Shown here piece by piece: positions 5,821-22,800 of a stretch of 64,000 nucleotides of DNA. Under the pieces are notes generated by a model. The model was not told the DNA's origin. It searched no databases and was given only the letters and a program-made list of their open reading frames with translations. The position numbers were made by a program, and so were the translations under genes. Origin of the DNA: an uncultured Acidobacteriota bacterium (GTDB taxonomy: Bacteria; Acidobacteriota; Thermoanaerobaculia; Multivoradales; UBA5704). Where the stretch lies: the NCBI GenBank assembly GCA_963770895.1, contig CAVYRF010000002.1, forward strand, positions 1,856,001 to 1,920,000, read 5' to 3'. Numbering within the stretch: the stretch's first letter is position 1; every line of letters starts with the position of its first letter.

Positions 5821-7592
5821 CGCTCGCGGTCGACCAGCCGGCGCATGCGCGCCAGGCGCTCGCCGAACCGCGCGTCGCGCCGCAGCGCCACCAGCATCGG
5901 CTCCAGCTCCAGCCAGCCGGCGTCGCGGTAGCCCAGGTCGATGGCGGCGTCCAGCGCCTGGAGCGCCGCGCCGTCGTCGCCGGCGGCGGTTTCGAGCAGT
6001 GCCAGGTCGAGCCCCGAGTCGGGCCACTCGTCGCCCTCGGCCCGGCCGCGCCGCAGCGCCTCCGCGAGGTCGCGCAGGTCGCGGCGCCGGCTCTCCAGGG
6101 TGGTGCCGGCGGCCACCGGCTGGCCTGCCGGGAGGTGGGCGCCCGCCTCCTGGAGCGCCAGCACCAGCAGCCGGGTCCGCGCGCGCAGGTCGTGGGGAGC
6201 CACGGCGAGCGCCTGGGCGAAGAACGCCCTGGCCCGCGCCGTGTCGCCGGCCAGGAGGGCGACCGCGCCGCGGACGTCGGCCAGCTCGGGGCGCCGGATG
6301 CCGCGCGCGATGGCGCCCTCGGCGATCGCGTCCGCCTCCCGCACCCGCCCCTGCGACAGGCGGGCGGCGGCGAAGGCGGCGGCGGCAAAGACGTTGTCCG
6401 GGCGAAGCTCCAGGGCGCGCTCGAACCAGACCGTCGCCGCGGGTTCGAAGCCGAGCGCGGCCAGGGTTCCTCCCACCTGCACCTCCAGGTAGATGGGCGG
6501 GTCGCCCGCTCCCAGGCGGGCGGCGCGCACGTCGGCTTCCAGCGCCGCCGCCAGGTGACCTTGGACCTGCAGCAGGTTGGCCGCGCTGGCCAGGGCGGCC
6601 GCCGGCTGCGCCTCCAGGCCGGCGGCGAGCTGGTAGGCGGCGAGCGCCGCATGCACCTGGCCGCGGCTGTCGCGGGCCAACCCAAGAGCATGGTGCGCCC
6701 TGCCCAGCCGCGGGTCCAGGGCCAGGGCTCGCTGCGCCAGCGCCAGCGCCTGGTCGTCGCCGCCGTGCTGGTTGAACTTGGTGCCGCGCTGGGACAGCGC
6801 CATGCTCAAGCCCGCCAGCGCCTGCGGGTTCCGCGGCTCGAGCTGCAGCGCCCGCTGATAGAGCTCGATCGCCAGCTCGTTGTTGGCCTCCTGGTGCTGC
6901 CCCAGGTAGGCGTCGGCGCGCCGCACCAGCTCGGCACCGGTGGGTGAGCGGGTTGCCACCGGGGCGGCCGGATCGGCCGTGGCGGCCGCTGCGGCCGGCG
7001 GTGCGAGTCGCGGGTCGAGCTGGCCCTGGCGGTCACGGTGCTGCCGGTAGGCGGCGACAAGCGCCAGGCCGGCGACCAGCAGCACGACGGCCGCGACGCT
7101 CAGGGCGGCAAGGGTGCCGGTGCGGCGGCGGGTGCCCTGGCCCTCGCCTGGCTTTCGGTCGGGCTGCTGGTGGCGCTCCCGGCCAGGTTCCTGGGCAGGC
7201 GTCTGGCGGTGTTCCTGGTCGAGCTCCAGACCGGGCTGCTGGCCGGACTCCTGGTGGCCTTCCACCAGCACCGCGGGGACCAGCTGGTAGCCGCGCCCGC
7301 GCACCGCTCGCAGGTAGCGCGGGCTCCTGGCCTCGTCGCCCAGCGCCCGGCGCAGCAGCGCGACGCGCTGGGTGAGCGTTTCGTCGGCGACTGCCACCCC
7401 CGCCCAGACGGTGGCGATGAGCTCCTCCGGCGACACCACGGCGGGGGCGCGGCGCGCCAGCGCGACGAGCAGGTCGAACGACAGGCGCGGCAGCTCCACC
7501 TTGCGGCCGTCCTGGTGGACAACGGTGAATTCTTCCAGGTCGACCGTCAGGTCGGCGATGCGGAACCGCTTTTCGCCTGGCTGCCGGAGCAT
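5754..7592 (-). CDS. CadC/ToxR-like membrane-anchored regulator (wHTH - TM - TPR)
   Basis: OmpR-type wHTH (LSFDLLVALAR...VW...LTQRVALLRRALGD...YLRAVRGRGY), one TM (LAALSVAAVVLLVAGLALV), TPR repeats (YQRALQLEP, ALALDP). Confidence 0.9.
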   Translation of the reverse strand: MLRQPGEKRFRIADLTVDLEEFTVVHQDGRKVELPRLSFDLLVALARRAPAVVSPEELIATVWAGVAVADETLTQRVALLRRALGDEARSPRYLRAVRGRGYQLVPAVLVEGHQESGQQPGLELDQEHRQTPAQEPGRERHQQPDRKPGEGQGTRRRTGTLAALSVAAVVLLVAGLALVAAYRQHRDRQGQLDPRLAPPAAAAATADPAAPVATRSPTGAELVRRADAYLGQHQEANNELAIELYQRALQLEPRNPQALAGLSMALSQRGTKFNQHGGDDQALALAQRALALDPRLGRAHHALGLARDSRGQVHAALAAYQLAAGLEAQPAAALASAANLLQVQGHLAAALEADVRAARLGAGDPPIYLEVQVGGTLAALGFEPAATVWFERALELRPDNVFAAAAFAAARLSQGRVREADAIAEGAIARGIRRPELADVRGAVALLAGDTARARAFFAQALAVAPHDLRARTRLLVLALQEAGAHLPAGQPVAAGTTLESRRRDLRDLAEALRRGRAEGDEWPDSGLDLALLETAAGDDGAALQALDAAIDLGYRDAGWLELEPMLVALRRDARFGERLARMRRLVDRERQGVVGAPWLPPALLAGSAARM

Positions 7593-7653: not shown

Positions 7654-8433
7654 TCAGCCCGGCGCCAGGGCCAGCACGCGCAGAGGGCTGCCGCTGCCCT
7701 GGACGATCTTGAGCGGCGCGGCGATCACCACGGCACCGGTCGGCGGCAGCTGGTCGAGGTTGCGCAGGCTGGTCAAGCCGAAGCGGCCGGCGCCGTGCAT
7801 CAGGGTGTGGCAGGGGAACGGCGGATCGAAGCGGCCGGCCTGGCCGGCGTCGGTGCCGACGGTCTCGACCCCGACGCCAAGGATGTCGCGATGGTGCGCC
7901 AGCAGCTCGATCGCCTCGCGGTCGAAGCCCGGACTGTGCGGGCCGTCGTCGGCGGCGTTGAGAAAGTCGCGCGCGCCGCTGCGCCGGCTCCAGCCGGTGC
8001 GCAGCAGCACCCACGACCCCGCCGGGATGGCGCCGTGCGCCTTCTCCCAAGCGAGCAGGCGGTCGCGGCCGAGCAGGAAATCGGCGTTCGCCGCCACCTC
8101 CGCGGTGACGTCGACGACGCAGGCGGGGCCGACGAAACGGCCGGCGGGGATGGTGTCGCAGGCGTTGCCCGGCAGGTCCCTGCCGGTGATCCAGTGGATG
8201 GGGGCGTCGAAATGCGTGCCGGTGTGCTCGCCTAGGCGCAGGCTGTTCCAGTACCACGCCGGGCCCTTCTCGTCGTAGCGCGACAGCACCTCGACCGAGA
8301 GACCGGGAGAAGCGGCGAACTGCGGCGGCAGATCGATCACCGGCGTATCCGGCCCGAGCGGCTGCGTCAGATCGACCACCCGCACCGTGCCGCCGGCGAG
8401 CGCTGCCACCAGCTGTACCAGGACGTCCGTCAT
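7654..8433 (-). CDS. Cyclase-family metal-dependent hydrolase (kynurenine formamidase/isatin hydrolase-like)
   Basis: EHTGTHFDAPIHW (HxGTHxDxPxH), VLLRTGWS, GSGSPLRVLA; start overlaps the upstream stop (ATGA). Confidence 0.92.
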   Translation of the reverse strand: MTDVLVQLVAALAGGTVRVVDLTQPLGPDTPVIDLPPQFAASPGLSVEVLSRYDEKGPAWYWNSLRLGEHTGTHFDAPIHWITGRDLPGNACDTIPAGRFVGPACVVDVTAEVAANADFLLGRDRLLAWEKAHGAIPAGSWVLLRTGWSRRSGARDFLNAADDGPHSPGFDREAIELLAHHRDILGVGVETVGTDAGQAGRFDPPFPCHTLMHGAGRFGLTSLRNLDQLPPTGAVVIAAPLKIVQGSGSPLRVLALAPG

Positions 8434-9062
8434 GGGCTGCTCCTCGTGCTCGCGTTGCTGAGGTTGCTGGCATTGTTCGCGTCGTTTGCGCCGCCGGCCA
8501 GGCCGCGCAGATGGCGCTCGAACTGGAAGCGGTTCTCCAGCAGGTGCAGGTCGATGAAGTAGCTTGCCGGCCCTTGCGGCTCGACCTTGGCGACCAGCAC
8601 CGCCAGATCCCCCGCGTCTAGCGCCTCCTGGCAGGCCAGCGCCAGGCTGTCCGTGGTGCGGTAGGTGCCGCTGCGCGGCACTCCCGCGGCGGCGGCGATC
8701 GCGGCCAGGTCGCTGCCGGTCGCGGTGGCGGTCGAAAAGCTGCGTCCGACCGAAAGCAGCGCCTCGTTGTCGAAGACCACGTGCAGCAGGTTGCGCGGCC
8801 GGTGCCGCGCCAGGGTGGTGAAGGTCCCCAGGTTCATCAAGACCGACCCGTCGCCATCCAGCACCACCACCTGCAGCTGCGGCCGCGCCAGCGCGATCCC
8901 CAGCCCCACCGAAGACGCCAGCCCCATCGAATGCCAGACGTAGAAGAACCCCGGCTGATGTCCGAGCGAAAACAGCTCGGCCGGCGCCGCGCCCATGTTG
9001 GTGACCACCACCCGGTCGGCGAGCAGCGGATAGATCGCCCGCAGCGCATCGATGCGCAGCAT
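8430..9062 (-). CDS. comE: Sulfopyruvate decarboxylase beta subunit-like (TPP-binding)
   Basis: SMGLASSVGLG and GDGSVLMN...DN TPP motif; ATG 9062 overlaps the alpha-subunit stop (TGATG). Confidence 0.85.
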   Translation of the reverse strand: MLRIDALRAIYPLLADRVVVTNMGAAPAELFSLGHQPGFFYVWHSMGLASSVGLGIALARPQLQVVVLDGDGSVLMNLGTFTTLARHRPRNLLHVVFDNEALLSVGRSFSTATATGSDLAAIAAAAGVPRSGTYRTTDSLALACQEALDAGDLAVLVAKVEPQGPASYFIDLHLLENRFQFERHLRGLAGGANDANNASNLSNASTRSSP

Positions 9063-9586
9063 CACGCGGGCCGCTCCTCTTCCCACATCAGCTCCCGGCC
9101 CAGCAGCAGCGCCACCGGCCGCAAGCTCGCCTCGGCCAGGCTCTGCGCCTGGCGCATCCTGGCCGCCACCTCTTCCTGCCGCTCGAGCAACAGCCAGGGG
9201 ATGCGCAGAGCGCGCAGCAGATCTTCCGTGACCCCGCCCCCCTCGGTCTGCCAGGGGTGTTCTTCGCCAAAACCACCGCGGTAGCTCACCAGCATCAGCA
9301 GCGGCACCCGATACAGCTGGGCCAACGACACGATGGCATTGACGCTCGCCAGCAGCCCATGGTTCTGCATCAGCATCGCCGACCGCACTCCAGCCAGGTG
9401 CGCGCCCACCGACACCCCCACCCCCTCCTCCTCCTTGGCCAGGCGCACCAGCGTCATCTCAGGATCCTCTTCCGCCAGGCTCACCAGCTGCACCAGCCAC
9501 GTCTCCGGCAACACCGACAGCAGCCGCACCCCGCAATCCTTCAGGGCCTGGTACAACCGCCGCGAATTCGCCACCGATACCGGCAT
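9062..9586 (-). CDS. comD: Sulfopyruvate decarboxylase alpha subunit-like
   Basis: KEEEGVGV, MLMQNHG, YRVPLLMLVSYRG...E..PWQ motifs; paired with the beta subunit. Confidence 0.85.
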   Translation of the reverse strand: MPVSVANSRRLYQALKDCGVRLLSVLPETWLVQLVSLAEEDPEMTLVRLAKEEEGVGVSVGAHLAGVRSAMLMQNHGLLASVNAIVSLAQLYRVPLLMLVSYRGGFGEEHPWQTEGGGVTEDLLRALRIPWLLLERQEEVAARMRQAQSLAEASLRPVALLLGRELMWEEERPA

Positions 9587-9766: not shown

Positions 9767-10030
9767 CTAGCCGTTGCGGAGCGGCCTGCCCGACGACACG
9801 GAGAGGACACGCGCATCCTCTTCGAGACGCGCCAGGGCGTCCGGCTGCACGAAGGCAGTGAAGATCTGGGGCGTCAATCGCGTACGGAGCGCGATACAGG
9901 AAGGCACATAACCGTCCGACGCCACCCGGACGACGGCCAGCAGAGGACCGGCGCGGGCCGTGCGGGCAAGCCACCGCAAGCGAGGCTCGATCTTCCTGGA
10001 CATGGGCTCGATGAGCGTCGAGTCAGCCAT
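9767..10030 (-). CDS. Small (87 aa) stand-alone subtilase prodomain-like protein, candidate protease inhibitor
   Basis: RBS AAAGGA-CAAC-ATG at 10030. IEPRLRW...IFTAFVQPDALARLEEDARVLSVSSGRPLR aligns by eye with the prodomain of the upstream S8 protease (LEPRLRW...IVTARVPPHRVEEIGRLPFLQGLAAARPVR). Confidence 0.7.
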   Translation of the reverse strand: MADSTLIEPMSRKIEPRLRWLARTARAGPLLAVVRVASDGYVPSCIALRTRLTPQIFTAFVQPDALARLEEDARVLSVSSGRPLRNG

Positions 10031-10145
10031 GTTGTCCTTTTTCTTTTTGCCTGGCCTGCTCTCGCACTGCAAGGCAAAAATCCGAGTTTGGCGCTGGCTT
10101 CATGTATATCATAACCGCCCGCATTCGCTGCCGGTTCCACCGCAA

Positions 10146-12314
10146 TCAGGATGGTAACCGGTGGATCGCCTGGATCGCGGCGCGCGCTTCGATCCGCCCC
10201 CAGCCGTAGCGTTCGTGCCACACGTGATCGGGCGGCGAGACCCGCGCCGCGGCGCGCAGGATCTCGCGAATGCGCGTCATGGACAGGTGCAAACCGCGTG
10301 CCTTTGCCTCGGCAAGCATCAGCGCGACGACTCCGGTGACGGCGGGAGCCGCCATGCTCGTGCCGCTGAGCGGAATCCTCTGCGTGCCGCGGCGGGAGCA
10401 GGCCGCCTGGACCGCCTGGCCCGGTGCGCTCAGCTCCGGTTTCTGCCGCCCGTCACGAGTTGGACCGGCACTGGTGAACGCGGACAGCGGCGTGCCGGTG
10501 CTGGTCGCGTCATAGGAACCGACGACGATCGGTTCGCGGCCGCACGCGATGGACCCCAGCGTAAAGCTGCGATCGACAGGCTCCAGGAACCGCGCCGTAC
10601 GGTCCCGATACCTCTCCATCCAGGCGTGAAACGTGCCGTCGATGACGCGGCGCCCGCGCAGCCGCAGCCGCCATTCGCCCGCGGGAAGCGCCGGTCCCAT
10701 CGCGATCAAAACCTGGGCCGGCTCACCTGCCAGACCTCCGCCCACGTGGCTGAGCAAGCCGCCCACAGCGCCCGCCCTGCCCGTCAGCTCGACATCCGGA
10801 TCGCCCGCGGCCAGCGGCGGGGATACCAGCTTGCCGCGAGGATCGATCAGCTCGACGGTGAGGTCGTCGTCCGGCGAATACCAGCCTTCGATTTCGATCT
10901 GCCGCTGGCGCGAACGCCGCACCTGCCAGGAGATCTCGTGGCTGCCGTCCTGGCCGACATGCCCTGTCACGTGGATGCCGGCATCAAAGGTATTTCCCGC
11001 GGCGATCACGATGGCGCGGTCGGGCGCGCCGCCCAGCATTTCGTCCAGGAAGACCTCGACGATGGAGGAGCCGTCGTGGGGACCGGCGTCGGTCGCCAGG
11101 CTGAGGTTCACCACGCAGGGCCGGTCCCCTGCCTGGCGGAAGATGAACTCGACGGCGTTCATCAGCTGCGTCGAATCGCTGAGGGAGCTCCGGCGGCGGC
11201 CGTCTGCCGGCGACGCTTCGCCGGCAAGGCACACGAAGATCAGCTCCGCGCCCGGCGCGATGCCCGCGACTCCGGTGCCGCGTCCGCCGCCGGCGGCGAT
11301 ATCCATGACGTGCGTGCCGTGGGCGCTCAATTCCGGACGATAGCCGAGGGCCTTGTAGGGAGCGGCGGTTTGCAGAGCGGCGTCGATCTGCTCCCTGGTG
11401 TGGACGCCGGTGTCACCCTGTGCCTGATCCCAAAGCGCCAGCAGGCGGGTCTTGCCATCCTGCTGGCGAAAGTTGGGGTGCGCGAAGTCGCAACCGAAAT
11501 CGACGATGCCGACGATCGCGCCGCGACCAGGCTCTCCCGAGGTCAGCGCCGGCAGCTGCAGTGGGGCCGCCGCGGTCTCCTCGACGGTCCGGTGCAGGTC
11601 CGGGCGGACCGGTCGGGCGGCGGCCAAACCCTGCAGGAACGGCAGCCGGCCGATCTCTTCGACCCGGTGGGGCGGCACGCGTGCGGTCACGATCCATTCG
11701 CTTCCGGCGCGCCGCGGCACGGCGATGCCGTGCGCGATGCCGGTCACCTTCTCCCAGGACGGGAGGTCGGACACCCGTGCCGTCACCGGGATGGTTCCTC
11801 CGGTTGCTGCGAGCCGCTGCGCCGACTGGAGCTGCCAGCGGAGCCGCGGCTCAAGGACCACCCTGGAGCGTCGCGCCCGTTCGAGCAGCTTCGGCCAATC
11901 ATCGGCGAAGTCGCCCTTGTCGAATACGTCCTCGATCTCCAGCTCTCGCCGATTGATCAGGTCTTTCAGCGGTTTGTCATCGGAGAAGTTGGTCAGCACC
12001 AGCACTGGCAGGTCGGGCCGCTCGCTACGAATCCGTTCGATCAGGCCGGTCGTCGTTCTGGGATGTGTGCCCCAGTTCATGAAGGCGCCCGGCCTTTCTT
12101 CGGGCAGGCGCCAATCCAGGACGAAGGCAACCAATGTCGAGTCCGCGATCCATTCTGCAGCGGTGCTCAACCGCGCCGCCCTCTGGTACCGGATGGTACC
12201 CACCTCGGGCCAATAGCCGACGCTCCGCCCATCGGCGGGCTCATACGCATCGCTTTCATCGACGTGCGCAAGGTACCAACCTACCGGGGGCTGCGTGACG
12301 GGAGCCAGGGTCAC
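10146..12314 (-). CDS. Receiver (REC) domain - prodomain - S8 subtilase fusion, with Csp-type beta insertion; no signal peptide
   Basis: REC motifs HVDES, FVLDWRLP, VLVLTN, FDKG; catalytic triad IVGIVDFG / HGTHV / SGTSMAAP and oxyanion AAGN. GTG start at 12314 overlaps the kinase stop (GTGA). Confidence 0.9.
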   Translation of the reverse strand: MTLAPVTQPPVGWYLAHVDESDAYEPADGRSVGYWPEVGTIRYQRAARLSTAAEWIADSTLVAFVLDWRLPEERPGAFMNWGTHPRTTTGLIERIRSERPDLPVLVLTNFSDDKPLKDLINRRELEIEDVFDKGDFADDWPKLLERARRSRVVLEPRLRWQLQSAQRLAATGGTIPVTARVSDLPSWEKVTGIAHGIAVPRRAGSEWIVTARVPPHRVEEIGRLPFLQGLAAARPVRPDLHRTVEETAAAPLQLPALTSGEPGRGAIVGIVDFGCDFAHPNFRQQDGKTRLLALWDQAQGDTGVHTREQIDAALQTAAPYKALGYRPELSAHGTHVMDIAAGGGRGTGVAGIAPGAELIFVCLAGEASPADGRRRSSLSDSTQLMNAVEFIFRQAGDRPCVVNLSLATDAGPHDGSSIVEVFLDEMLGGAPDRAIVIAAGNTFDAGIHVTGHVGQDGSHEISWQVRRSRQRQIEIEGWYSPDDDLTVELIDPRGKLVSPPLAAGDPDVELTGRAGAVGGLLSHVGGGLAGEPAQVLIAMGPALPAGEWRLRLRGRRVIDGTFHAWMERYRDRTARFLEPVDRSFTLGSIACGREPIVVGSYDATSTGTPLSAFTSAGPTRDGRQKPELSAPGQAVQAACSRRGTQRIPLSGTSMAAPAVTGVVALMLAEAKARGLHLSMTRIREILRAAARVSPPDHVWHERYGWGRIEARAAIQAIHRLPS

Positions 12315-15300
12315 AGGGGTGTCGCCTCCTTGGGGAGCGTGACGGTGAAGGTGGTGCCGGCCGCTGGCCGGCAAGCGAACCGCACATCACCGCCGAGCCA
12401 TTGGACGTATCGATAGACCATGAAAAGGCCGAGGCCGAGTCCGGGGTGGTGGGTCTCCTCGGACTCCGAGTCGCCGCGAACGCCTTCGCCATAGAGCGAT
12501 GCGGCGATCGTCGCCGGCAGGCCGTCGCCCTCGTCGCGCACCTCGATGAACACCTCGCGACGGTGACGCCGAACGTCCAGCACGACCTCCGAGTCCGCGG
12601 GCGAGTACTTGCAGGCATTGTCGAGCAGGTTCTGCACGATGTCGCCGACCATCATCTGGTCGAGCATCACCTCCACCGGCTCGCGCCGCGCCTGCCAGTG
12701 GACGACGTGCGTGTCCTTGTAAAGGGATTGCACGATCCGGCGGCGAAATTCCATCTCCGCGACAAGATCGAACCGCTTGAGCAGGGTCGGTGGCGACATG
12801 CCCCGTACCATGCGCATGTAGTTCTGGTGGTTGGAGATCATCAGCGCGCAGTCCTCGGCGAGGTCTTTGAGATAGGACAGGTCGCCCGCGATCAACGACG
12901 CGGGCCGCCGCTCCAGGCGCTTCAGCACGTTGCGCATGGCGTTGATCGGGCTGCCGATGTGATGGAACTGGAGGGCTAGAAGGCGGTGCGTCTGCACGGA
13001 GCGGATGAACTCGTGGACCAGGAATTGCGGCACCATGCGGCACAGCGCGCGGGTCGAAGGGTCGGGAGCCGCTTCGCGTTCATAGGCAAAGAAGAGCAGG
13101 GCGTAGCGTTGCCCGTTGCGCAGCACCGGCACCACCTCACCCAGCAGGATGCCACCGCTGTCGAGCTTGAAGAGCTCCGGGGTTGGCGGATCGCCGAGCA
13201 GCGGCGCCGCCGCCAGCAGGTCGTCGGCTTCGCGCTTCAGCCGGCCGATTTCGATATCGGGCAGCAGGCGCTTGAGCTGCCGCCGGATCACGCTCGAATG
13301 GGTCATCGTCGCTGCGGCGTCGGAATTGAGGATCACCCCCTTTGCCGAGGGGTCCTTGGTCAACAGCAGCACGTGCTGGGCGCGGGCAAGCTCGCCATGG
13401 AGCGAGGCATAGTCGAGCAGGCGGCGCCGCAGGATGCCTTCATCGAAGGAGTCCTCGGGCTCTTCGGGAGCCTCCTGTTGCAGGAAACGCAGCGGCGCGA
13501 CGAAGTCGAATTCGATTTCGACCTGCCGTAGCACGGCGTCGCAGGCCGTCGCAAAGACCGCCGCGATCACTCCGCGCATCTTTTCGGTCACGTTCGCCTG
13601 GCGCACGACCAGCAGCCGGTCCGCCGAGCGCCGCAGCGCGCTGTACAGCGTCCGCGCCGCGGCGAAGGCGGCGCTGGGCGGCAGCTGCGAGATCTCGATC
13701 AGGCTCTGTGCGCACTGCGCCAGCGCCAGGCTGTGGTCTGCCGGCAGGTGCGAGCCTTCCCAGGCCAGTGTCCCGACGTGGGCTCGGGCGCTCTCCCGCA
13801 GGTGCGGATCGACCCCGCCGTCGAATGCGATGGCGATGCCGCAGAGGTTGTAGACGTCGCGGAAGGCTCTCTGGCTGGCGGTTTGCGCCGGCGCCTTGTG
13901 CAGCAGCCTGAACAGCGTGCGTCTGGCCTCGCCTCCCCGTGCGTCACCGGGTGGCGAGGAGCCGGCCTGGCACAGGGCGACGAGGATCTCGGTACAGCGC
14001 CTCTCCGCGGGCGGGTGCACTCGGTGGCGCCTGGCGACGAACTCGAGCACCGCCAGCCGGCAGGTGCCGTCCACCAGCGATGCCAGCAGGTCCCAATCCG
14101 AATAGCCGTAAGCCTGTTGCACTGCCTGTACGCAGCGGTACAGCTCGATTGCCAGCCAGGTGTCGTGTTGATCGAAGTGGCAGTCGCGGAGCCGCTGCAG
14201 CAGCATGGGGAGGAGATACGCGATCACCGGTTGGCGGGCGCTGCGGCGGACGTCGTACGCCATCATGCGACGGATCGCCTGCGAGGTGCGAAACGGCAGC
14301 GCCAGCCGTGGGTCGTTGAGCACCCGCTCGACCAGGAGGCTTTTCATCGAGCGGCCGCCGAAGCTTGCCAGCTCGCCGTTCAGCTCGTCGCCCAGAAAGA
14401 CCTCGAGCGCGGAGCCGTTCGAGTATCGGAAGAACATGTGCGCCACCACGAGCCGGCACCGCAGGTTGTCTTCGGAGGACTCGGGCCCCCAATTCCTGCA
14501 CAGGTCGTGGCACAGGTGTACCAGGCGGGCAAGCTGAGGGCGTAGGTCCGGCGACAAATCGCCGCAGCTGAATGCGGCCAGCCGGAAGGCGCAGCGCAGG
14601 GCGTAGCGCAATCGCAGGTTGGGGTGCCGGCCGCCGGGTGTCCTGATGTGGCCCGCCGCCAGCGTGATCAACTCAGGAAGCAGAGACGAAAAGCCCTCCT
14701 CGTCGTCGTAGCGCAACCGAAAAGCCAGCGCCGACGGGGCCTCGGTGGGCATGCCGACGCTGGCCAGCAGCCACGCCACCTCTTCGAGGGCCTGGCGCAG
14801 CATGGACGCGTCCAGGCCGGCTCCGGCGCCGGCGTCCGAGGAAGCCTTGTGGGCGATCGCTGCCAGCAGCTCAGGGATCAGTCTGCCGCTGTGCAGAGAG
14901 CTCTCGATGCTGGCGGTGAGCGACCGCTCCAGCGTTGCCGGCAGACGTGCTCCGGCGTGAGCGAGGGCGCCGGCCGCCGCGATGGCGATGTCGTGGTTCA
15001 GCCGCCGCACGCTTTCGGCGCGATGGCAAAGCGCCACGATGCGGATGCTCTTGTCGAAACAGGCCAGCGCCACCAGGGTGTGGCCGCGCTCCTCGTCTTC
15101 GCTGGCACTGAGTGGGGAGTCAGGCGCCGCGAGCAGCACCAGGTGCTCGATGGCCAGGGCGTCGGAGTCGGCCAGCCGGATCGCGTAGCTGTGCTCGATC
15201 GGGTCGTCCAGACGCACGACGTGCAGCAGACCCGCCGAGTCCGATGCCAGGAGAACCTGGCGCAGCCGTGGCGGCGGCTCCGGAAGGCCGGGGTCAACCG

Positions 15301-17854
15301 GTACGCCTGGCAGCAGCAGCCGGGTGAGCCCGCCGCCGGTGATGGATGCCGTGCCCCCCACCTCGGCAGCCCAGTCGACGACCAGCTCGGTTTCGCCATC
15401 CGGCACTGCGGCCGGCAGCCGCCGCAAGAGCACCAGGGTGCCGCTGGCATTGCCGATCATCAGCAGGCCGGGGCCGCAGGCGGCGATCATGCGTACGGCG
15501 GCGGCCGCTTCGTAGACCACCTTGCGGCGCGGGGCTCGCAGGTTGCGACCGTCAAACAGCAGCCGCAAGCAGCGACCGTTGTCACAGCCGGCGATCAGCT
15601 CGCCGGTGCCGTCGGCATCCGGGCACCATTCCAGCACGCGGACGGGCGTGTATCCGTCGCCGACGGCGGGAACCTCGGGTGGGCTCTCGTAGCGCACCTG
15701 CAGAGCGCCGTTGCCGGCCGTCACCCGCAGCAGTCCGACGTCTTCCCGCCGCCCTCCGACCGCGATGGCGCCTCCCGGCAGGAGCTTGAAGCCATAGATG
15801 AAGAAGGTTCCAGCGGCGCCTTCGACTGGCTGCGGCGGCGGCCAGCGCAGGCTCTCGGAGGCGCCGACCATGACGTCGGCAAGCGGCAACGAGGTCCATC
15901 CGCGGTCGCGATGGAAAAGGATCAGGTGCTGTCGGGCGGTGGCGGGGTCGCGCCATACGACAGCCTGTTGCAACCGCGTTATCGGGCCTTTTTCATCCTT
16001 GGCCCGGGTGGAGATCAGTCGCTGTCCAAAATTATCCAGCAGATAGGCAAATCCTTCGTCGTACGAAGTGGCAAGCAGCAGGAAGTCATCGCCGTCCCTG
16101 CCGGCCTCGATCTTCTGCAGGGTCGTGACAACCTGCGGCAGCTTGATCGAAGTCCGCTCCGTGTACAGCCGCTCAGCCAGCAAGGAGCGGTAGATCGCCG
16201 CGTCGTAGATGTGATCGCGGCCGTTCTGCTCGTTGAAGCGGGCCAATTTGTGCAAGTTCTGGCGCTTGTCGAAAAAGGACAGGCCGTCCAGGTTGTACTT
16301 GCCGATGTGATGCAGCAGATCCAGCGCAGTGGCGCAAAAGGGCTCATGGTGCTGCGCCACTTCGGCGACCCGCGACTGGACTTCCCGGCACCAGCCGGAG
16401 CCTGCGTCGATCAGCAGGTGGTAGACGATCAGCAGCAGCCGGCGATGGTCGGCGGGTCCCCAGGGCGCGCGCTCGACCTGCCGCAAAAGCCAGTCGCTGG
16501 TTCTGAACAGGAGGGCCAGCACATTACGCCGCAGCTCGCGATCGTCAGGTTGGGCCTGAAGATGCTTCAGCACCGTTGCGAGGTCGTCGATCCCGGCCGC
16601 CCGCGACCAATCCTGAACGCGCCGGTCGAACTCCTGCTTGGTGAGGATGCAAATTTCTTGCAGCTGGTGATTGCCGAGCGCCACAAAGATCGTCGTCGCT
16701 GGCACCGACCTCGCTGCGCCGCGGTCACGGACGGCGAGGGCCAGGACACGCTCGCCCAGCGGCACGGTGAACTGCCGGCCGGTGAACAGCCAGCTGGGCA
16801 TGGCAGACCGGCCGTCCATCACGATTTCCGGGGCATGGTAGAAGTGCAGGAAAGAGTCGTTGGCGCCCGCCGCCAGCCACAACGCGTCGCCGAAATCGAT
16901 CCAGGCGAGTGACGATACGCGGTCGGCGATCGGGCGATCGGTCACCAGGCGCGACTTCGACGTCCCCTCGCCGCCGGCGTCCGCGTGCCAATGGACGATG
17001 TATTTGACATTGCCGCCCTGCGCCACGGCCAGAACGTCGCAGGGCAAGGGCACGCATGCCGGCTGTGGCATCGCGGCCAAGGCGCGGATCGGTCCCGGCT
17101 CTCCCGACAGCCGGTCCGGATGTGACGCGAACGCTTCCGCGGGCGCGAAGTCGACTTGATACAGCCCGCCAAGCATGGTCCCGGCATAGATCCGTGGCGC
17201 GGGACTGCCTGGCCGCGGCTCCCCGGCGGCATAGAGCACGGCCACGGGCTCCCGCGGCGAGGCCAGACGCTGGCGATGGACCGACGGCGGTTCCGGCTTG
17301 GACGGCGGTTCCGGCTTGGCGGCAGGGAAGCCGATGGCTGCACGGACGATGCCGCCATCGGCCAGGCTCACCCAGAGCTCCCGCCGCCCTTCCAGGTAGA
17401 GCAGCGACAGGATGCGCGCCCCCAGGTCGATGCGATGGACGCGCCCGAGCTCGCTGTCGTCCACCCAAGCCGGCTTGCCGGTCTCGTAGTCAAGGAACTG
17501 CAATCCGCCGCCGCCGGCGCCGGCGGCGACCAGCGTTCTCTCGCTGCACGGATCGCAGCGCTCGGCCTGCTCCTCATGGCAATAGATCAGTGTGAGATCG
17601 TAGATCGGGCCTGCGGTGCCGCCTTGGCTGGTGTCCCCCGGCGAGGTCCAGACAACCTGCAAATCAAGGCCAAGCCGCAGGATCTGTCCGCTCTTGTCGC
17701 CGCAGAGGAGGCCGTTGTCCTCTTTCAGGCTATAGCGATCGATCAGTTTCAGCGATCGGGTCTCGTAGGCAAGCGTGAATTTGCCGAGCACCTCGTGGCG
17801 GCCGGAGACGTTGGGGTACTTCGATGGGAACCCTTCAGCGGGCGTGCGGTTCAT
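12311..17854 (-). CDS. Giant soluble sensor histidine kinase with WD40-like beta-propeller and helical regions
   Basis: H-box FHHIGSPIN, N-box NLLDNACKYS, G1 VRDEGDG, G2 GLGLGL, GTTFTVTLP. N-terminal blades such as LWVSLADGGI, LAAGANDSFLHFY, LIAGCDNGRC, LACFDKSIRI. No TM segment seen. Confidence 0.9.
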   Translation of the reverse strand: MNRTPAEGFPSKYPNVSGRHEVLGKFTLAYETRSLKLIDRYSLKEDNGLLCGDKSGQILRLGLDLQVVWTSPGDTSQGGTAGPIYDLTLIYCHEEQAERCDPCSERTLVAAGAGGGGLQFLDYETGKPAWVDDSELGRVHRIDLGARILSLLYLEGRRELWVSLADGGIVRAAIGFPAAKPEPPSKPEPPSVHRQRLASPREPVAVLYAAGEPRPGSPAPRIYAGTMLGGLYQVDFAPAEAFASHPDRLSGEPGPIRALAAMPQPACVPLPCDVLAVAQGGNVKYIVHWHADAGGEGTSKSRLVTDRPIADRVSSLAWIDFGDALWLAAGANDSFLHFYHAPEIVMDGRSAMPSWLFTGRQFTVPLGERVLALAVRDRGAARSVPATTIFVALGNHQLQEICILTKQEFDRRVQDWSRAAGIDDLATVLKHLQAQPDDRELRRNVLALLFRTSDWLLRQVERAPWGPADHRRLLLIVYHLLIDAGSGWCREVQSRVAEVAQHHEPFCATALDLLHHIGKYNLDGLSFFDKRQNLHKLARFNEQNGRDHIYDAAIYRSLLAERLYTERTSIKLPQVVTTLQKIEAGRDGDDFLLLATSYDEGFAYLLDNFGQRLISTRAKDEKGPITRLQQAVVWRDPATARQHLILFHRDRGWTSLPLADVMVGASESLRWPPPQPVEGAAGTFFIYGFKLLPGGAIAVGGRREDVGLLRVTAGNGALQVRYESPPEVPAVGDGYTPVRVLEWCPDADGTGELIAGCDNGRCLRLLFDGRNLRAPRRKVVYEAAAAVRMIAACGPGLLMIGNASGTLVLLRRLPAAVPDGETELVVDWAAEVGGTASITGGGLTRLLLPGVPVDPGLPEPPPRLRQVLLASDSAGLLHVVRLDDPIEHSYAIRLADSDALAIEHLVLLAAPDSPLSASEDEERGHTLVALACFDKSIRIVALCHRAESVRRLNHDIAIAAAGALAHAGARLPATLERSLTASIESSLHSGRLIPELLAAIAHKASSDAGAGAGLDASMLRQALEEVAWLLASVGMPTEAPSALAFRLRYDDEEGFSSLLPELITLAAGHIRTPGGRHPNLRLRYALRCAFRLAAFSCGDLSPDLRPQLARLVHLCHDLCRNWGPESSEDNLRCRLVVAHMFFRYSNGSALEVFLGDELNGELASFGGRSMKSLLVERVLNDPRLALPFRTSQAIRRMMAYDVRRSARQPVIAYLLPMLLQRLRDCHFDQHDTWLAIELYRCVQAVQQAYGYSDWDLLASLVDGTCRLAVLEFVARRHRVHPPAERRCTEILVALCQAGSSPPGDARGGEARRTLFRLLHKAPAQTASQRAFRDVYNLCGIAIAFDGGVDPHLRESARAHVGTLAWEGSHLPADHSLALAQCAQSLIEISQLPPSAAFAAARTLYSALRRSADRLLVVRQANVTEKMRGVIAAVFATACDAVLRQVEIEFDFVAPLRFLQQEAPEEPEDSFDEGILRRRLLDYASLHGELARAQHVLLLTKDPSAKGVILNSDAAATMTHSSVIRRQLKRLLPDIEIGRLKREADDLLAAAPLLGDPPTPELFKLDSGGILLGEVVPVLRNGQRYALLFFAYEREAAPDPSTRALCRMVPQFLVHEFIRSVQTHRLLALQFHHIGSPINAMRNVLKRLERRPASLIAGDLSYLKDLAEDCALMISNHQNYMRMVRGMSPPTLLKRFDLVAEMEFRRRIVQSLYKDTHVVHWQARREPVEVMLDQMMVGDIVQNLLDNACKYSPADSEVVLDVRRHRREVFIEVRDEGDGLPATIAASLYGEGVRGDSESEETHHPGLGLGLFMVYRYVQWLGGDVRFACRPAAGTTFTVTLPKEATPL
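17283..17318. repeat. 18-bp tandem duplication in the kinase (KPEPPS x2)
   Basis: gacggcggttccggcttg occurs twice in tandem, in frame. Confidence 0.85.
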
Positions 17855-17932
17855 TCTGAATTGGACAGGTGAGTGCAGGCCACAATCACTACATGGTCAC
17901 ACGGAACAAATCGCTGCGAAATTTCTATGGCA

Positions 17933-17961
17933 AAGCTATCACCGGCCCCTGGGTTATGCAA
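17933..17961 (-). promoter_or_regulatory. Candidate sigma70 promoter of the kinase-protease unit
   Basis: Minus strand TTGCAT-17 bp-TAGCTT with extended -10 TG, in an AT-rich gap 78 bp before the ATG. Confidence 0.45.
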
Positions 17962-18043
17962 TGTTTAGCATACTGCGCACATGTCTATATCATGATCAAC
18001 GGACGCGCCGTTGCGGTGGTGAGCCGATGTCGCGATCCGCGCG

Positions 18044-19892: not shown

Positions 19893-22800
19893 ATGAGCGG
19901 CTCTCTTCCTCCGGCGCAACGATTCAGCCATCTTGAGCTCTGGCGTAGCGGCGTCGGACTGGTGCCGGCCGAGGGGGCGCGGGGATCGGCCTCCGCCGTG
20001 CATATCGGCGAAGTGCCGGGAAGCCGGTTGCCGCTGCGTTCGTGCACGTGCGCCGACAGCCAGAAGCGGACCTGCGATCACCTGCGCGACCTGGGGCGCG
20101 CCCTGGGCGAGCTCAAGCGGCACCTTGGCGGCGCGGCCTGGCAGGAGATGTTTGCCGCCACCGTCTGGTACCGGCTGGCAAAGATCCTCTTCGCGGAGAG
20201 CGGCATCGGCTGCGCGGCCGTGCTGGTCAGCCGTGTCGAAGTGGACGGACGGGCGGCGATCCGCATCACCGGGGGCGGCGGCGAGGAGCTGGCGAGCTAC
20301 CTTGACGGCTCCGGCGCCCAGGTCCGGTTCCTCGAGCGTGCGGGCAAGATGGCGCCCTCGGACGCGGCCTTCGACCGTGCCCGCCTGCTCGACCGGCTGG
20401 CGCTCTTTCAGCGCACCAAGGCCGAGCGCGAGTTGGCGGAGCGCGGCGCCAAGACGCAAGGTCAGGCGTGGGAGGAGAGCTTCTGGCACCGGCTTGCCTA
20501 CCACTGCGTGCGCGAATTCGAGGACCGCGAGGGGAGCTTCCACCCGGCGATCGACACCGGCTCCGGGCGTTTCACCCTCACTTACCGCTGGCAGGGCGAG
20601 CCGGTCGTGCGAGTGGGCGTGCCGCGCGGTTCCGTCCAGCCGGCGCTGCGGCTGCTGGCCCAAGCGTTCCCGGAGCAGGAGGACCTGGCGATCTCGCCGC
20701 TGCCTCTGCAGTCGATCCTGCACGTCGGCGCCGAGACGCGCTTCGACCTGGACGAAGTCGTGGTGCGGCCGGCGATCCGGGCGATCCAGGCAGCGGGCGG
20801 CGAGCGCTACCTCTTCCAGGCCGAGGTCGACAAGTTCCGCTACGGCAGCCTGGTCTACCTGCGCGAGCTGGGCGTGCTCGCCGAGCTCGAGCGGCCGGGC
20901 AAGGAGCGCAAGTTCCGCGCCCCAGCGCACCTGAAGCTCAGTCGCTGCCAGATCCCGGGCTTCCTGGCCGAGCACCGGGAGGAGGTCGTCCAGGGGCGGG
21001 TGGTGCTCGACGCTCCGTTGCGCAATCGCAGGATCTGGAAGGAGATCGACTGGATCCAGGCGAGCGGCGAAGCGGCGGCGCGGAGCTGGTATTGGCTGGC
21101 GATGGAATACGGCTTCGGCAACCATTCCCTCTCGCTCGCCGACCTCCTGGCCGCACGGCGCGGCGGCCTGCCGTTCCTGGAGACCCCGGACGGCTGGATC
21201 GATCTTCACGCTCCTGCCTTCGACCATCTCGACCGCCTGGTCGAGGTGACGGAGGCGGGGGCCGGCGGTGCCGGCCTGCCCGCGACACCGCCCGATTCCG
21301 ATCGTCTGGCGATCCCGGCCCTGGAGCTGCTGCGTCTGCAGGCGCTCCTGGGCCGGCCGCTGGCGATCGCCGGCGACGCGGCGCGCGGCGCCGCCGCGCC
21401 GCTCGGGACGCTTTTGGGCCAGCGCCCCCGCGATCCGCTCGGGCCGCTCGGCGCCCTGGCGTCGCCCCTGCGGCCCTACCAGCGGCTGGGGGTCGAGTGG
21501 CTGCGCTTTCTTGCCGACAACGGGCTCTCCGGCCTGCTCTGCGACGACATGGGACTGGGCAAGACCCACCAGGTGATGGCGCTGCTGGCGAGCTTGCTGG
21601 AAGACGGGCGCGCCACCGCGCCGTTCCTGGTCGTCTGCCCCACGAGCGTGATCAGCCACTGGCGCAACAAGCTGCGCGAGCACGCGCCGGGACTGCGTGC
21701 GGTGATCCACCACGGCAGCGACCGGAGTGAGGACAGCCTGGCGCTGCTGCGGCCCGGAGACGTCCTGGTGACCTCGTATGGCGTGCTGCGGCGCGAGGCG
21801 GAGGAGCTTTCTCGCGTCGCTTTCACGGTCGCGGTGTTCGACGAGGCGCATCATCTCAAGAACCCCGGCACGCAAGCCTTTCGCGCCGCCGGCGGCCTGC
21901 GCGCCGAGATGCGGCTGGGGCTCACCGGGACGCCGATCGAGAACGCCACCGGCGATCTCAAGGCGCTGTTCGACCTGGTGCTGCCCGGCTATTTCGGCAG
22001 CGACGCCGACTTCACGCGGCGTTACGGCCGCGACGCCCGTCCGGCGCAGGGCGCCGCCGCGCAGCAGGGACTGGGGTTGGCCTGGAGCGACGACCTGCGG
22101 CTTGCCGAGCTGCGCCGCGCCATCTCGCCTTTCGTGTTGCGCCGCCTCAAGTCGACGGTGCTCGCCGAGCTGCCGGACAAGATCGAAGACCTTCGCACCT
22201 GCGCCCTGTCCGACGACCAGGTGAAGCTCTACCGCGACGCGATCGCCGGGCGCGGGGACGCTCTCGCCCGCGAGCTGGTGGCGGCGGCCGGCCCGGTGCC
22301 CTACATCCACGTCTTCGCCCTCCTCAACCTGCTCAAGCGGATCTGCGACCATCCCTGCCTCGCCCTGGGCCGCCTCGACGACGTCGAGCAGTGGCGTTCG
22401 GGCAAGTGGGACCTTTTCCGCGAGATTCTGGACGAGACCCTGGGCAGCGGCCTCAAGGTCGTCGTCTTCAGTCAGTTCCTGGGCATGATCGAGCTCATGC
22501 AACGGCACCTCACCGGCCTGGGAGTCGGCTTCGCCACCCTTACCGGGTCCAGCGGCGGCAGCGTCCGCCGCGGCGAAATCGTCGACCGCTTCAACCGTGA
22601 TCCAGACTGCCGTGTGTTCCTGGGCAGCCTCAAGGCCGGCGGCACCGGCATCGACCTGGTGGGCGGCTCGGTGGTCGTGCACTACGACCGCTGGTGGAAC
22701 GCGGCACGCGAAGACCAGGCGACCGATCGCGTCCATCGCATCGGACAGCAGCGCGCGGTGCAGGTCGTCAAGCTCATCACCGAGGGCACGCTCGAAGAGA

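What the first reader, a model, noticed from the sequence alone, without database searches (positions are those of the whole stretch)
9767..17961. Candidate new system: propeller histidine kinase, receiver-gated subtilase and free prodomain
Seen: three co-oriented genes behind one candidate promoter. The first is a 1847-aa kinase with no TM segment and intact H/N/G boxes. It overlaps (GTGA) a protein whose REC domain keeps the Asp, Thr and Lys residues and is fused directly to a prodomain and a complete S8 triad, with no signal peptide. The third is an 87-aa copy of that prodomain. Established: response regulators usually output through DNA binding or second-messenger enzymes, and subtilases are held inactive by their prodomains. 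Inference: a cytoplasmic phosphorylation-switched protease with its own inhibitor, possibly for defence, cell death or development. I do not recognise this architecture as a described system.
Basis: partly seen in the sequence, partly recalled or inferred. Interest (0 to 1): 0.9.

Follow-up and report, generated by a model that had tools for sequence, protein, structure and literature searches.

The report
Kinase-gated protease with free inhibitor
A rare three-gene cassette links a giant sensor kinase to a protease that carries a phosphate-receiver switch, followed by a separate small copy of the protease's own inhibitory piece; it resembles known two-component anti-virus systems but uses parts I could not find described.

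Summary
The three minus-strand genes are real. They are a 1847-aa soluble histidine kinase (12311-17854), a 722-aa REC-prodomain-S8 protein (10146-12314, GTGA overlap) and an 87-aa protein (9767-10030).

- **REC domain:** Pfam misses it, but the AF2 model (pLDDT 84.7) aligns to solved receiver domains at Z about 13. Asp67, Thr108 and Lys133 are in place.
- **Protease:** prodomain plus S8 is closest to the clostridial CspB/CspA proteases (Z 45). The triad D272/H332/S653 is intact.
- **Small protein:** it matches the prodomain at profile level only (hhalign E 3.2e-5).
- **Not confirmed:** the 'propeller' (kinase model pLDDT 37) and the promoter.

The whole trio recurs once, in 1 of 9 other genomes of the genus, with unrelated flanks. 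The kinase's sensor region was found nowhere else.

The same rare REC subtype (19 clusters among 1.84 billion) is also fused to TIR and CHAT domains. S8 plus small-protein pairs sit on three alphaproteobacterial plasmids.

Best reading: a Detocs-like two-component conflict system with a protease output and a trans-prodomain buffer. Function is untested. I rate it a new variant of a known kind, interest about 0.6.

The parts
12311..17854 (-). Gene 1: 1847-aa soluble histidine kinase. About 1600 aa of unassigned sensor region is followed by DHp and the catalytic ATPase domain.
   Evidence: ORF and translation. HATPase_c at 1733-1843, E 9.5e-19. NCBIfam kinase models align from about 1620. G009 ortholog covers 16-1844 at 41% identity.
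16640..17737 (-). Kinase aa 40-405: first beta-rich region, possibly a propeller (unconfirmed).
   Evidence: Low-confidence AF2 secondary structure. A blade-like motif recurs in a post-hoc regex test. The nearest named Atlas clusters are WD40, at scores 0.83-0.85, which is below the 0.9 that the tool treats as more than a lead.
16130..16639 (-). Kinase aa 406-575: helical region between the two beta-rich regions.
   Evidence: AF2 DSSP helices 406-568, pLDDT mostly 40-55.
15020..16129 (-). Kinase aa 576-945: second beta-rich region, possibly a propeller (unconfirmed).
   Evidence: AF2 DSSP strands 578-940, pLDDT 50-75 only at 590-730. hhalign of region 1 against region 2 is not significant (E 0.26).
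13055..15019 (-). Kinase aa 946-1600: mostly helical, unassigned region.
   Evidence: No Pfam hit and no PDB sequence hit. Atlas gives only GAF leads at 0.82-0.83.
12314..13054 (-). Kinase aa 1601-1847: DHp with H1631 (H-box HHIGSP), then the catalytic domain with N, G1 and G2 boxes.
   Evidence: Motifs printed. HATPase_c. 54% identical to G009 over 245 aa.
10146..12314 (-). Gene 2: 722-aa REC-prodomain-S8 protein. Its GTG start overlaps the kinase stop (GTGA).
11865..12314 (-). REC domain, aa 1-150. Acidic D19/E20, phospho-acceptor candidate D67, T108 and K133.
   Evidence: AF2 (beta-alpha)5 fold. VIA Z 12.9-13.2 to receiver domains. Profile against PDB finds Spo0F at E 9.4e-5. Invariant residues.
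11604..11855 (-). Cis prodomain, aa 154-237: an N-terminal helix (EPRLRW) followed by beta-alpha-beta units.
   Evidence: AF2 elements H156-167 through E227-232. Covered by the alignments to CspA (175-722) and pro-Tk-SP (151-719).
11529..11603 (-). Linker, aa 238-262: the likely autoprocessing region (inferred).
   Evidence: pLDDT below 50 at 236-244. Its position matches the prodomain-to-catalytic junction in Csp and pro-subtilisin alignments.
10149..11528 (-). S8 catalytic domain, aa 263-722, with a beta-rich insert (about 448-576). Triad D272/H332/S653 and oxyanion N441.
   Evidence: Pfam Peptidase_S8 E 6e-30. CspB 4i0w: Foldseek E 2e-38, TM 0.86; VIA Z 45.4, rmsd 2.5, 447 aligned. Invariant residues.
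10031..10145 (-). 115-nt spacer between genes 2 and 3, with AAGGA 4 nt before the ATG.
   Evidence: Sequence read. Spacers of 64-101 nt precede the small gene in three plasmid loci.
9767..10030 (-). Gene 3: 87-aa free prodomain-like protein.
   Evidence: G009 homolog is 46% identical over 76 aa. Homologs follow S8 genes on 3 plasmids. hhalign to the prodomain gives E 3.2e-5.
17855..17984 (-). AT-richer region upstream of the kinase. A promoter here is presumed but not identified.
   Evidence: Sequence. No minus-strand sigma-70-like site.

Best explanation
The cassette encodes a self-contained two-component phosphorelay whose output is proteolysis rather than transcription.

1. The giant soluble kinase senses a cytoplasmic cue through its sensor region of about 1600 aa. 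This is inferred, and the ligand is unknown.
2. It autophosphorylates on H1631 and passes the phosphate to D67 of the receiver domain. That receiver sits at the N-terminus of a Csp-like intracellular subtilase.
3. Receiver helix alpha5 runs almost directly into the first helix of the cis prodomain. Phosphorylation is therefore proposed to loosen or remove the prodomain from the catalytic domain and so switch the protease on (inferred).
4. The 87-aa protein is a receiver-less copy of that prodomain. It is proposed to re-cap any catalytic domain that opens by accident. That would set a threshold, and it could be consumed once enough protease is active (inferred).

The same receiver subtype is fused to TIR and CHAT death or immunity domains elsewhere, and the cassette is rare, patchy and context-independent. 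I therefore read it as a conflict system (anti-phage or programmed cell death) that works like Detocs but has a new sensor, a new effector and a new kind of buffer.
For: Shown:
- Kinase motifs are intact and no membrane segment is apparent.
- The 4-nt start/stop overlap is conserved in both genomes.
- The REC fold is present with D67, T108 and K133.
- The prodomain plus complete S8 is closest to CspB and CspA.
- The AF2 chain has pTM 0.78, with alpha5 (133-149) followed by helix 156-167.
- The small protein is homologous to the prodomain at E 3.2e-5. The small-protein HMM also touches the N-terminal prodomain region of 10 further S8 ORFs, each individually insignificant at E 0.014-3.9.
- Small homologs lie directly downstream of related S8 genes on 3 of 6 plasmid loci inspected.

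Cassette behaviour:
- The full trio is in 2 of 41 genomes (G000 and G009), which is 1 of 9 other genomes of the genus.
- Similarity to the G009 locus is confined to window 9767 to about 17800.
- GC is 64-69% across the cassette against 70-76% in the flanks, though other parts of the window are equally low.

Conflict link:
- 19 clusters carry this REC subtype among 1.84 billion representatives. They include TIR-REC (P0126) and REC-CHAT (P0128).
- Detocs shows that kinase-to-receiver-effector defence exists and that it needs a buffer.
Against: - No biochemical or genetic data exist.
- Pfam does not call the REC domain. There is no hit at E<=1, and relatives score 17.9-23.6 bits against a cutoff of 30.2.
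- The cassette does not sit in a recognisable defence island. The flanks are thiamine-enzyme genes, unassigned ORFs and an SNF2 helicase in the window, and fatty-acid and glycogen genes in G009.
- PADLOC gives only a generic 'subtilase' hit (E 2.4e-24), a weak IetS hit (E 7e-5) and a weak kinase hit. The isolated REC domain has no PADLOC hit.
- Genomic context of the TIR-REC, REC-CHAT and other REC-S8 proteins could not be fetched, so it is unknown whether they sit beside kinases.
- The trio itself was seen in only two related genomes.
- Binding of the small protein to the protease is not shown.
- The pairwise prodomain similarity is weak.
Confidence: 0.5

Rival explanations
1. This is a housekeeping or developmental signalling protease, not a conflict system. 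The kinase responds to an internal physiological cue. The phosphorylated REC-S8 then cleaves one or a few specific substrates, as CspB cleaves pro-SleC in spore germination. The small protein tunes that activity.
For: The closest structures are the Csp germination proteases, which are specific processing enzymes that keep their prodomain. The flanking genes are metabolic rather than defence genes. No PADLOC system is matched.
Against: The cassette is present in only 2 of 10 genomes of the genus, with unrelated flanks. No candidate substrate gene travels with it. The REC subtype is shared with TIR and CHAT fusions. NCBIfam CspBA scores 138 bits against a cutoff of 1250.
Confidence: 0.25
2. The small protein is a trans-acting folding chaperone for the protease rather than an inhibitor or buffer. 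This would parallel the downstream ORF2 chaperone of the Aeromonas sobria serine protease.
For: The arrangement of an S8 gene followed by a small gene recurs in 5 loci. The ASP-ORF2 chaperone complex 3wqb is among the structural matches of the protease (rank 40, Z 26.3). Subtilase prodomains are known to act both as chaperones and as inhibitors (recalled knowledge).
Against: The protease already carries its own cis prodomain, so a second chaperone seems redundant. The small protein ends in RPLRNG, matching RPVRPD at the end of the cis prodomain. That fits a product-like active-site plug.
Confidence: 0.12
3. The N-terminal domain is a pseudo-receiver that only scaffolds or dimerises the protease. 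The kinase signals to another regulator, and the two genes are merely neighbours.
For: Pfam Response_reg is not reached. In this copy the alpha1 region is irregular and poorly modelled, with pLDDT below 50 at 30-34 and blocks of 51-60. Papers on conflict systems report receiver domains that act without histidine kinases (passage read).
Against: D67, T/S108, K133 and the acidic pair are conserved across relatives. The 4-nt overlap with the kinase is conserved in both genomes. The REC-subtype HMM finds no other REC at E<=1 in the whole 64-kb window.
Confidence: 0.08

Closest known systems
Detocs (DtcA sensor kinase, DtcB stand-alone receiver 'buffer', DtcC receiver-effector). Rousset et al., bioRxiv 10.1101/2023.01.24.525353; passages read.
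   Same: A three-gene operon in which a histidine kinase passes a signal to a receiver fused to a non-DNA-binding, cell-damaging enzyme. A third small protein is proposed to prevent accidental firing. The effector domain is exchangeable: PNP in 80% of operons, otherwise endonuclease or transmembrane domains.
   Different: The sensor here is about 1600 aa of unassigned, partly beta-rich sequence, not TPR. The effector is a prodomain-bearing S8 protease, which the passages I read do not list. The third gene is a prodomain copy that would act on the protease, not a receiver acting as a phosphate sink. Sequence homology to Dtc proteins was not tested. Table S5, the list of alternative effectors, could not be seen.
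Clostridial Csp germination subtilases (CspB 4i0w; CspA and CspC 9pr9, 9pr8, 6mw4)
   Same: Best structural match. The shared features are prodomain, S8 catalytic domain and a beta-rich insert, in an intracellular enzyme. CspB gives VIA Z 45.4, rmsd 2.5, 447 aligned, 28% identity. CspA gives Z 43.5 over 175-722. The Foldseek top 10 are all Csp entries.
   Different: Csp proteins have no receiver domain, no partner kinase and no free prodomain gene. NCBIfam CspBA scores 138 bits against a cutoff of 1250, so this protein is not an equivalog. It comes from a non-sporulating lineage.
Free-standing subtilase propeptide-like inhibitors (MEROPS I9, for example yeast proteinase B inhibitor 2).
   Same: A small cytoplasmic protein that resembles a subtilase prodomain and could inhibit an intracellular subtilase.
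   Different: The 87-aa protein has no Pfam hit at E<=0.1, so Inhibitor_I9 is not matched. Its homology is to this S8 family's own prodomain. Inhibition is untested.
CheB methylesterase and RssB: receiver-gated enzyme or adaptor. Recalled from memory; RssB receivers do appear among the PDB profile hits.
   Same: A receiver domain directly controls a fused or bound hydrolytic activity through phosphorylation, instead of controlling DNA binding.
   Different: The catalytic folds differ. Neither involves a prodomain or a trans inhibitor.
IetAS (ATPase IetA plus S8 protease IetS) and the PADLOC model named 'subtilase'
   Same: S8 proteases occur as components of candidate anti-phage systems. The PADLOC 'subtilase' model hits at E 2.4e-24 and IetS at E 7e-5.
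   Different: The IetS match is weak and partial. No IetA-like ATPase is in the cassette. The tool output does not say which system the 'subtilase' model belongs to.
Aeromonas sobria serine protease with its downstream ORF2 chaperone (3wqb)
   Same: An S8 gene is followed by a small helper gene whose product binds the protease. The structure is listed at Z 26.3.
   Different: To my recollection ASP is secreted and lacks a cis prodomain. Here the enzyme is cytoplasmic and carries its own prodomain.

Membership tests
Response-regulator receiver (REC, CheY-like) domain | Five-stranded (beta-alpha)5 flavodoxin-like fold | tested here: met
   The AF2 model has strands 13-18, 41-46, 61-67, 104-108 and 130-132 with intervening helices. 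VIA Z is 12.9-13.2 to six receiver entries over model residues 9-159.
Response-regulator receiver (REC, CheY-like) domain | Phospho-acceptor Asp at the end of beta3, acidic pair after beta1, Thr/Ser after beta4, Lys after beta5 | tested here: met
   D67 and K133 are invariant in 8 of 8 relatives. D67 and T108 are invariant in the 7-row REC alignment. D19 and E20 are read. D67 aligns with the Asp of the DMKIP motif of Spo0F.
Response-regulator receiver (REC, CheY-like) domain | Reaches the Pfam Response_reg (PF00072) gathering score | tested here: not met
   The window protein has no hit at E<=1. Relatives score 17.9-23.6 bits against a cutoff of 30.2. The domain is a divergent subtype.
Response-regulator receiver (REC, CheY-like) domain | Accepts phosphate from a cognate histidine kinase | not testable with these tools
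   This needs an in-vitro phosphotransfer assay.
Peptidase S8 (subtilase) | Pfam Peptidase_S8 above its cutoff, with an Asp/His/Ser triad in D-H-S order and an oxyanion Asn | tested here: met
   105 bits against a cutoff of 21.8. D272, H332, N441 and S653 are invariant in 8 of 8 relatives.
Csp-type germination subtilases | NCBIfam CspBA or CspC model cutoff | tested here: not met
   138 bits against 1250, and 91.6 bits against 675. The protein shares the fold but is not a member.
Histidine kinase (HisKA/HATPase_c type) | HATPase_c domain with N, G1 and G2 boxes, and an H-box histidine in a preceding helical DHp | tested here: met
   HATPase_c scores 68.3 bits against a cutoff of 26.4. The motifs are read. 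Pfam HisKA itself was not reported at E<=1, so the DHp rests on the motif and on NCBIfam alignments that start at about 1620-1630.
WD40 or other beta-propeller (kinase N-terminus) | Recognisable propeller repeats by profile or by a confident fold | tested here: inconclusive
   No Pfam propeller family at E<=1. AF2 mean pLDDT is 37. Atlas WD40 clusters score 0.83-0.85, below the 0.9 lead threshold. A post-hoc blade-like motif occurs 8 times in the first 1000 residues, against 0.7 in shuffles.
Detocs | Histidine kinase plus a response regulator whose receiver is fused to a toxic non-DNA-binding effector, in one operon | tested here: met
.
Detocs | Third gene encodes a stand-alone receiver (DtcB) | tested here: not met
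   The third gene is prodomain-like. The REC-subtype HMM finds no other REC at E<=1 in the window or in the G009 locus.
Detocs | Sequence homology to DtcA, DtcB or DtcC; TPR sensor in the kinase | not tested
   No Dtc sequences were available. Pfam shows no TPR in the kinase. PADLOC returned no Dtc-named hit, but I do not know whether that release contains Detocs models.
Detocs | Protects against phage in a way that depends on the kinase His and the receiver Asp | not testable with these tools
   This needs phage challenge of a heterologous host.
Subtilase prodomain / I9-like inhibitor (87-aa protein) | Homology to a subtilase prodomain | tested here: met
   hhalign of the 5-row small-protein profile against the 40-row S8 family gives E 3.2e-5, probability 72.6%, 59 columns on the prodomain. 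Pfam Inhibitor_I9 is not hit, and pairwise BLASTP is weak.
IetAS | IetS-type S8 protease paired with an IetA ATPase | tested here: not met
   IetS scores 19.3 bits at E 7e-5. The cassette holds no ATPase gene.

The most novel reading that the evidence does not exclude
This would be the first response regulator whose output is a protease. A giant cytosolic sensor kinase detects an invader or damage signal and phosphorylates the receiver. The receiver then pulls the cis prodomain off a Csp-like subtilase. A free, receiver-less prodomain acts as a consumable antitoxin that turns the response into an all-or-none, irreversible commitment. The same receiver subtype plugged into TIR, CHAT and S8 would define an undescribed family of phosphorelay-triggered cell-death or immunity effectors.
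Probability: 0.35. Interest if true: 0.8.

Novelty: new variant of a known kind. Interest (0 to 1): 0.62.

Why it matters
Two-component systems are nearly always read as transcription or second-messenger switches. Detocs showed that they can fire a toxic enzyme directly.

A receiver that gates a subtilase through its prodomain would add proteolysis to the outputs of phosphorelays. It would also give a new way of controlling an intracellular S8 protease. The trans-prodomain would be a buffering principle different from Detocs' phosphate sink.

The pairing of this S8 family with a small prodomain gene on plasmids suggests a reusable protease/anti-protease module. The receiver subtype shared with TIR and CHAT fusions suggests a reusable switch. 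Both are directly testable with three small constructs.

Tried and rejected
- **Complex prediction.** Prediction of the S8 catalytic part with the 87-aa protein gave no result. Binding of the small protein therefore remains untested.
- **Kinase sensor fold.** AF2 on residues 1-1000 with a 2-row alignment gave mean pLDDT 37 and is unusable. The PDB sequence search gave nothing below E 0.47. hhalign of the two beta-rich regions against each other gave E 0.26. The second Atlas call gave only GAF leads at 0.82-0.83.
- **Kinase relatives.** The word-index search of residues 1-1600 returned nothing, not even the protein itself, so that blank is uninformative. The genome-contig scan found only the G009 contig. 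The metagenome scan found only kinase-core matches. The sensor-region profile hit 1 of 401 phylum genomes, G000 itself.
- **Small protein relatives.** The search found only the protein itself. The G009 and plasmid homologs came from locus inspection instead.
- **REC subtype in the phylum.** In 401 phylum genomes, 4 other genomes matched at E 1e-8 to 1e-9 in ORFs of 211-554 aa. I took these for ordinary response regulators and did not examine them.
- **Context of other REC fusions.** The cluster look-up gave only singletons without taxa.
- **Other S8 loci in relatives.** 0 of 8 carry the REC, the kinase or the small gene.
- **Repeats.** No repeats flank the cassette.
- **Literature.** Six searches found no paper describing a receiver-subtilase fusion or a kinase/REC-S8/prodomain operon. 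The Burroughs and Aravind 2020 analysis cited by the Detocs paper is not in the library. The Detocs supplementary tables could not be read.
- **Earlier scan notes.** The place and sequence look-ups gave nothing.


Full report
**What is there.**
On the minus strand of a window with about 68% GC lie three consecutive ORFs: 12311-17854 (1847 aa), 10146-12314 (722 aa from a GTG) and 9767-10030 (87 aa). The long ORFs on the opposite strand (10161-12416 and 14624-16912) are shadows. Only the minus-strand products have family matches: HATPase_c at E 9.5e-19 and Peptidase_S8 at E 6e-30. Only they have conserved orthologs. The kinase stop and the second gene's start overlap as GTGA. In the only other genome with the cassette the same junction is ATGA. 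A 115-nt spacer with an AAGGA 4 nt before the ATG precedes the third gene.

**Kinase.**
- The C-terminal 250 residues carry an H-box (HHIGSP, H1631), an N box (N1746), G1 (DEGDG) and G2 (GLGLGL). They align to many histidine-kinase models from about residue 1620.
- No 19-residue window exceeds a Kyte-Doolittle mean of 1.61, and the top window contains an Arg. The protein therefore looks soluble.
- The first 1600 residues or so match nothing in Pfam at E<=1 and nothing in PDB sequences (best E 0.47).
AF2 on residues 1-1000, with only two sequences, gave mean pLDDT 37.
- Its secondary structure suggests two beta-rich blocks (about 40-405 and 576-945) separated by helices. The nearest named language-model clusters are WD40 proteins at 0.83-0.85, below the level that the tool treats as more than a lead.
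- A blade-like motif that I defined post hoc occurs 8 times in the first 1000 residues, against 0.7 in shuffles. The two blocks do not align significantly with each other (E 0.26).

**REC-S8 protein.**
- Pfam sees only the protease. A 40-row alignment gave an AF2 model with mean pLDDT 84.7 and pTM 0.78.
- Residues 13-149 form a (beta-alpha)5 domain. In an all-against-48,161-chain comparison, ranks 1-44 are subtilases or sedolisins and ranks 45-50 are all receiver domains. Those six align at Z 12.9-13.2, rmsd 2.5-3.3, with 115-130 residues over model 9-159.
- A seven-sequence profile of the domain finds Spo0F at E 9.4e-5. Of the 40 PDB sequences at E<=1, 35 are named receivers or response regulators.
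- D67 (end of beta3) and K133 are invariant in 8 of 8 full-length relatives. T108 is invariant in the receiver-only alignment. D19 and E20 supply the acidic pair.
- The alpha1 region is irregular in this copy (pLDDT below 50 at 30-34).
- Residues 154-237 are a prodomain, 238-262 a poorly modelled linker and 263-722 the catalytic domain with a beta-rich insert.
- D272, H332, N441 and S653 are invariant.
- The closest structures are CspB (Foldseek E 2e-38; VIA Z 45.4, rmsd 2.5, 447 aligned) and CspA and CspC. The NCBIfam Csp models are far below their cutoffs.

**The 87-aa protein.**
- Pairwise, it shares only a 13-residue stretch with the start of the prodomain (E 0.018). With its G009 ortholog alone, the profile match is weak (E 0.0085, probability 4.7%).
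- Inspection of plasmid hits of the protease showed that 3 of 6 loci examined carry an annotated 85-92-aa gene 64-101 nt downstream of the S8 gene. These are Rhizobium, Sphingobium and Agrobacterium. The three Bacillota loci have none.
- These small proteins align with the window's. The five-row profile matches the prodomain of the S8 family at E 3.2e-5, probability 72.6%, small protein 30-85 against REC-S8 172-237.
- An HMM of the five also touches the N-terminal prodomain region of 10 further S8 ORFs, at individually insignificant E values (0.014-3.9). It touches one unrelated ORF at E 0.0051.
- The protein ends at RPLRNG, level with RPVRPD at the end of the cis prodomain.
- I therefore accept 'free prodomain-like protein' at moderate confidence. 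Whether it binds the protease is untested, because no complex prediction was obtained.

**Distribution.**
- The protease belongs to a large family of about 600 aa. The homolog search found 970 proteins at E<=0.001 among 8000 scored. Of the 120 listed, only 8 cover at least 94% of the query, meaning they include the receiver.
- The receiver alone has 19 matching clusters among 1.84 billion representatives. Eight are S8 fusions, counting the query itself and one fragment. One is REC-CHAT (P0128) and one is TIR-REC (P0126). Two have an unassigned C-terminal domain. Several are proteins of 138-153 aa that look like stand-alone receivers.
- All ten that I looked up are singletons seen on one or two contigs.
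- The full kinase and the full REC-S8 occur in 2 of 41 genomes searched, G000 and G009, which is 1 of 9 other genomes of the genus. G009 also has the small gene.
- G009's contig is titled a Thermoanaerobaculia MAG.
- The kinase sensor region was found in 1 of 401 phylum genomes, G000 only. It was found nowhere else in the genome and metagenome scans.
- tblastx of the window against 25.5 kb of the G009 locus finds similarity only from 9767 to about 17800. The flanks differ: thiamine-enzyme genes and an SNF2 helicase here, and fatty-acid genes, an IS1-like fragment and glycogen genes there.
- The trio is therefore a discrete, patchily distributed cassette. It is not in an obvious defence island.

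**How it most likely works.**
- Shown: an intact kinase core is translationally coupled to a receiver with all phospho-chemistry residues. That receiver is fused through a short connection (alpha5 133-149, then helix 156-167) to the prodomain of a complete intracellular subtilase. A receiver-less prodomain homolog follows.
- Inferred:
  1. The kinase senses a cytoplasmic ligand.
  2. It phosphorylates D67.
  3. The change on the receiver's output face displaces or destabilises the cis prodomain, and the protease becomes active.
  4. The free prodomain re-caps stray catalytic domains and sets a threshold.
  5. Once the threshold is exceeded, the inhibitor may be degraded, which would make the switch irreversible.
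- The link to conflict or cell death rests on three things. The receiver subtype is shared with TIR and CHAT fusions. The cassette behaves as a mobile unit. Detocs sets a precedent.

**Comparison with the known.**
- Detocs (passages read) is a kinase, a stand-alone receiver buffer and a receiver-PNP effector. Its defence depends on the kinase His and the receiver Asp, and alternative effectors include endonuclease and transmembrane domains.
- The present cassette works like Detocs in outline. It fails one compositional feature, because it has no stand-alone receiver. It also has a different sensor and a different effector. Homology to Dtc proteins was not tested, and the supplementary effector table could not be read.
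- Papers by Kaur and colleagues note receiver domains among conflict-system effectors, but as acting without histidine kinases (passages read).
- Six literature searches found no receiver-subtilase fusion and no such operon.
- Two earlier notes of this scan describe related themes in other genomes: a giant sensor kinase, a receiver, an S8 protease and, in one of them, a free I9-like protein. Both also named Detocs as the closest system. I did not test those loci.

**Verdict.**
The promoter and the propeller are unverified, and the prodomain copy is a profile-level call. I rate it a new variant of a known kind (defensive or conflict two-component systems), very rare, with interest about 0.6.

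Noticed in passing
window 17283-17318: A perfect 18-nt tandem duplication lies inside the kinase gene. It encodes KPEPPS twice, in a proline-rich loop around residues 179-192.
   Followed up: no
window 24477-27422 (-): A 981-aa protein has a C-terminal CHAT (caspase-like) domain (Pfam E 5.7e-36). About 700 N-terminal residues are unassigned. It lies 6.6 kb upstream of the cassette and has no PADLOC hit.
   Followed up: partly
window 19893-22934 (+): An SNF2-family helicase has strong PADLOC matches to DpdE and ZorD models (best E 2.8e-107). This may be only general SNF2 similarity. No other Dpd or Zorya parts were looked for.
   Followed up: no
L029 10905-12284, L032 11010-12362, L033 10832-12181: In 3 of 8 loci of more distant S8-family members in related genomes, the S8 gene is followed directly by a protein of about 450 aa with a metallo-beta-lactamase fold. 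This may be a different partner module for the same protease family.
   Followed up: partly
L035 7794-12013; L043 5674-9791; L042 5812-8242: On the Rhizobium and Agrobacterium plasmids the order is S8, small prodomain-like gene, then a phospholipase-D-like gene. On the Sphingobium plasmid the pair of S8 plus small gene sits alone between a Tn3 and an IS66 transposase. The N-terminal 150 residues or so of these S8 proteins are not receiver domains by my HMM.
   Followed up: partly
G000:C1:40806-41162 (locus L011): A 1496-aa open frame elsewhere in the same genome matches residues 167-284 of the REC-S8 protein (the prodomain and the start of the catalytic domain) at E 3e-5.
   Followed up: no
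L021 7912-8862: An IS1-like transposase fragment (27.6 bits) lies about 1.1 kb upstream of the G009 kinase gene.
   Followed up: no
window 8430-9586 (-): Two adjacent genes encode the N- and C-terminal thiamine-diphosphate-binding halves of a split TPP enzyme, immediately downstream of the cassette.
   Followed up: no
window 5754-7592 (-): A 612-aa protein has a winged-helix Trans_reg_C domain followed by TPR repeats and has no receiver domain.
   Followed up: no
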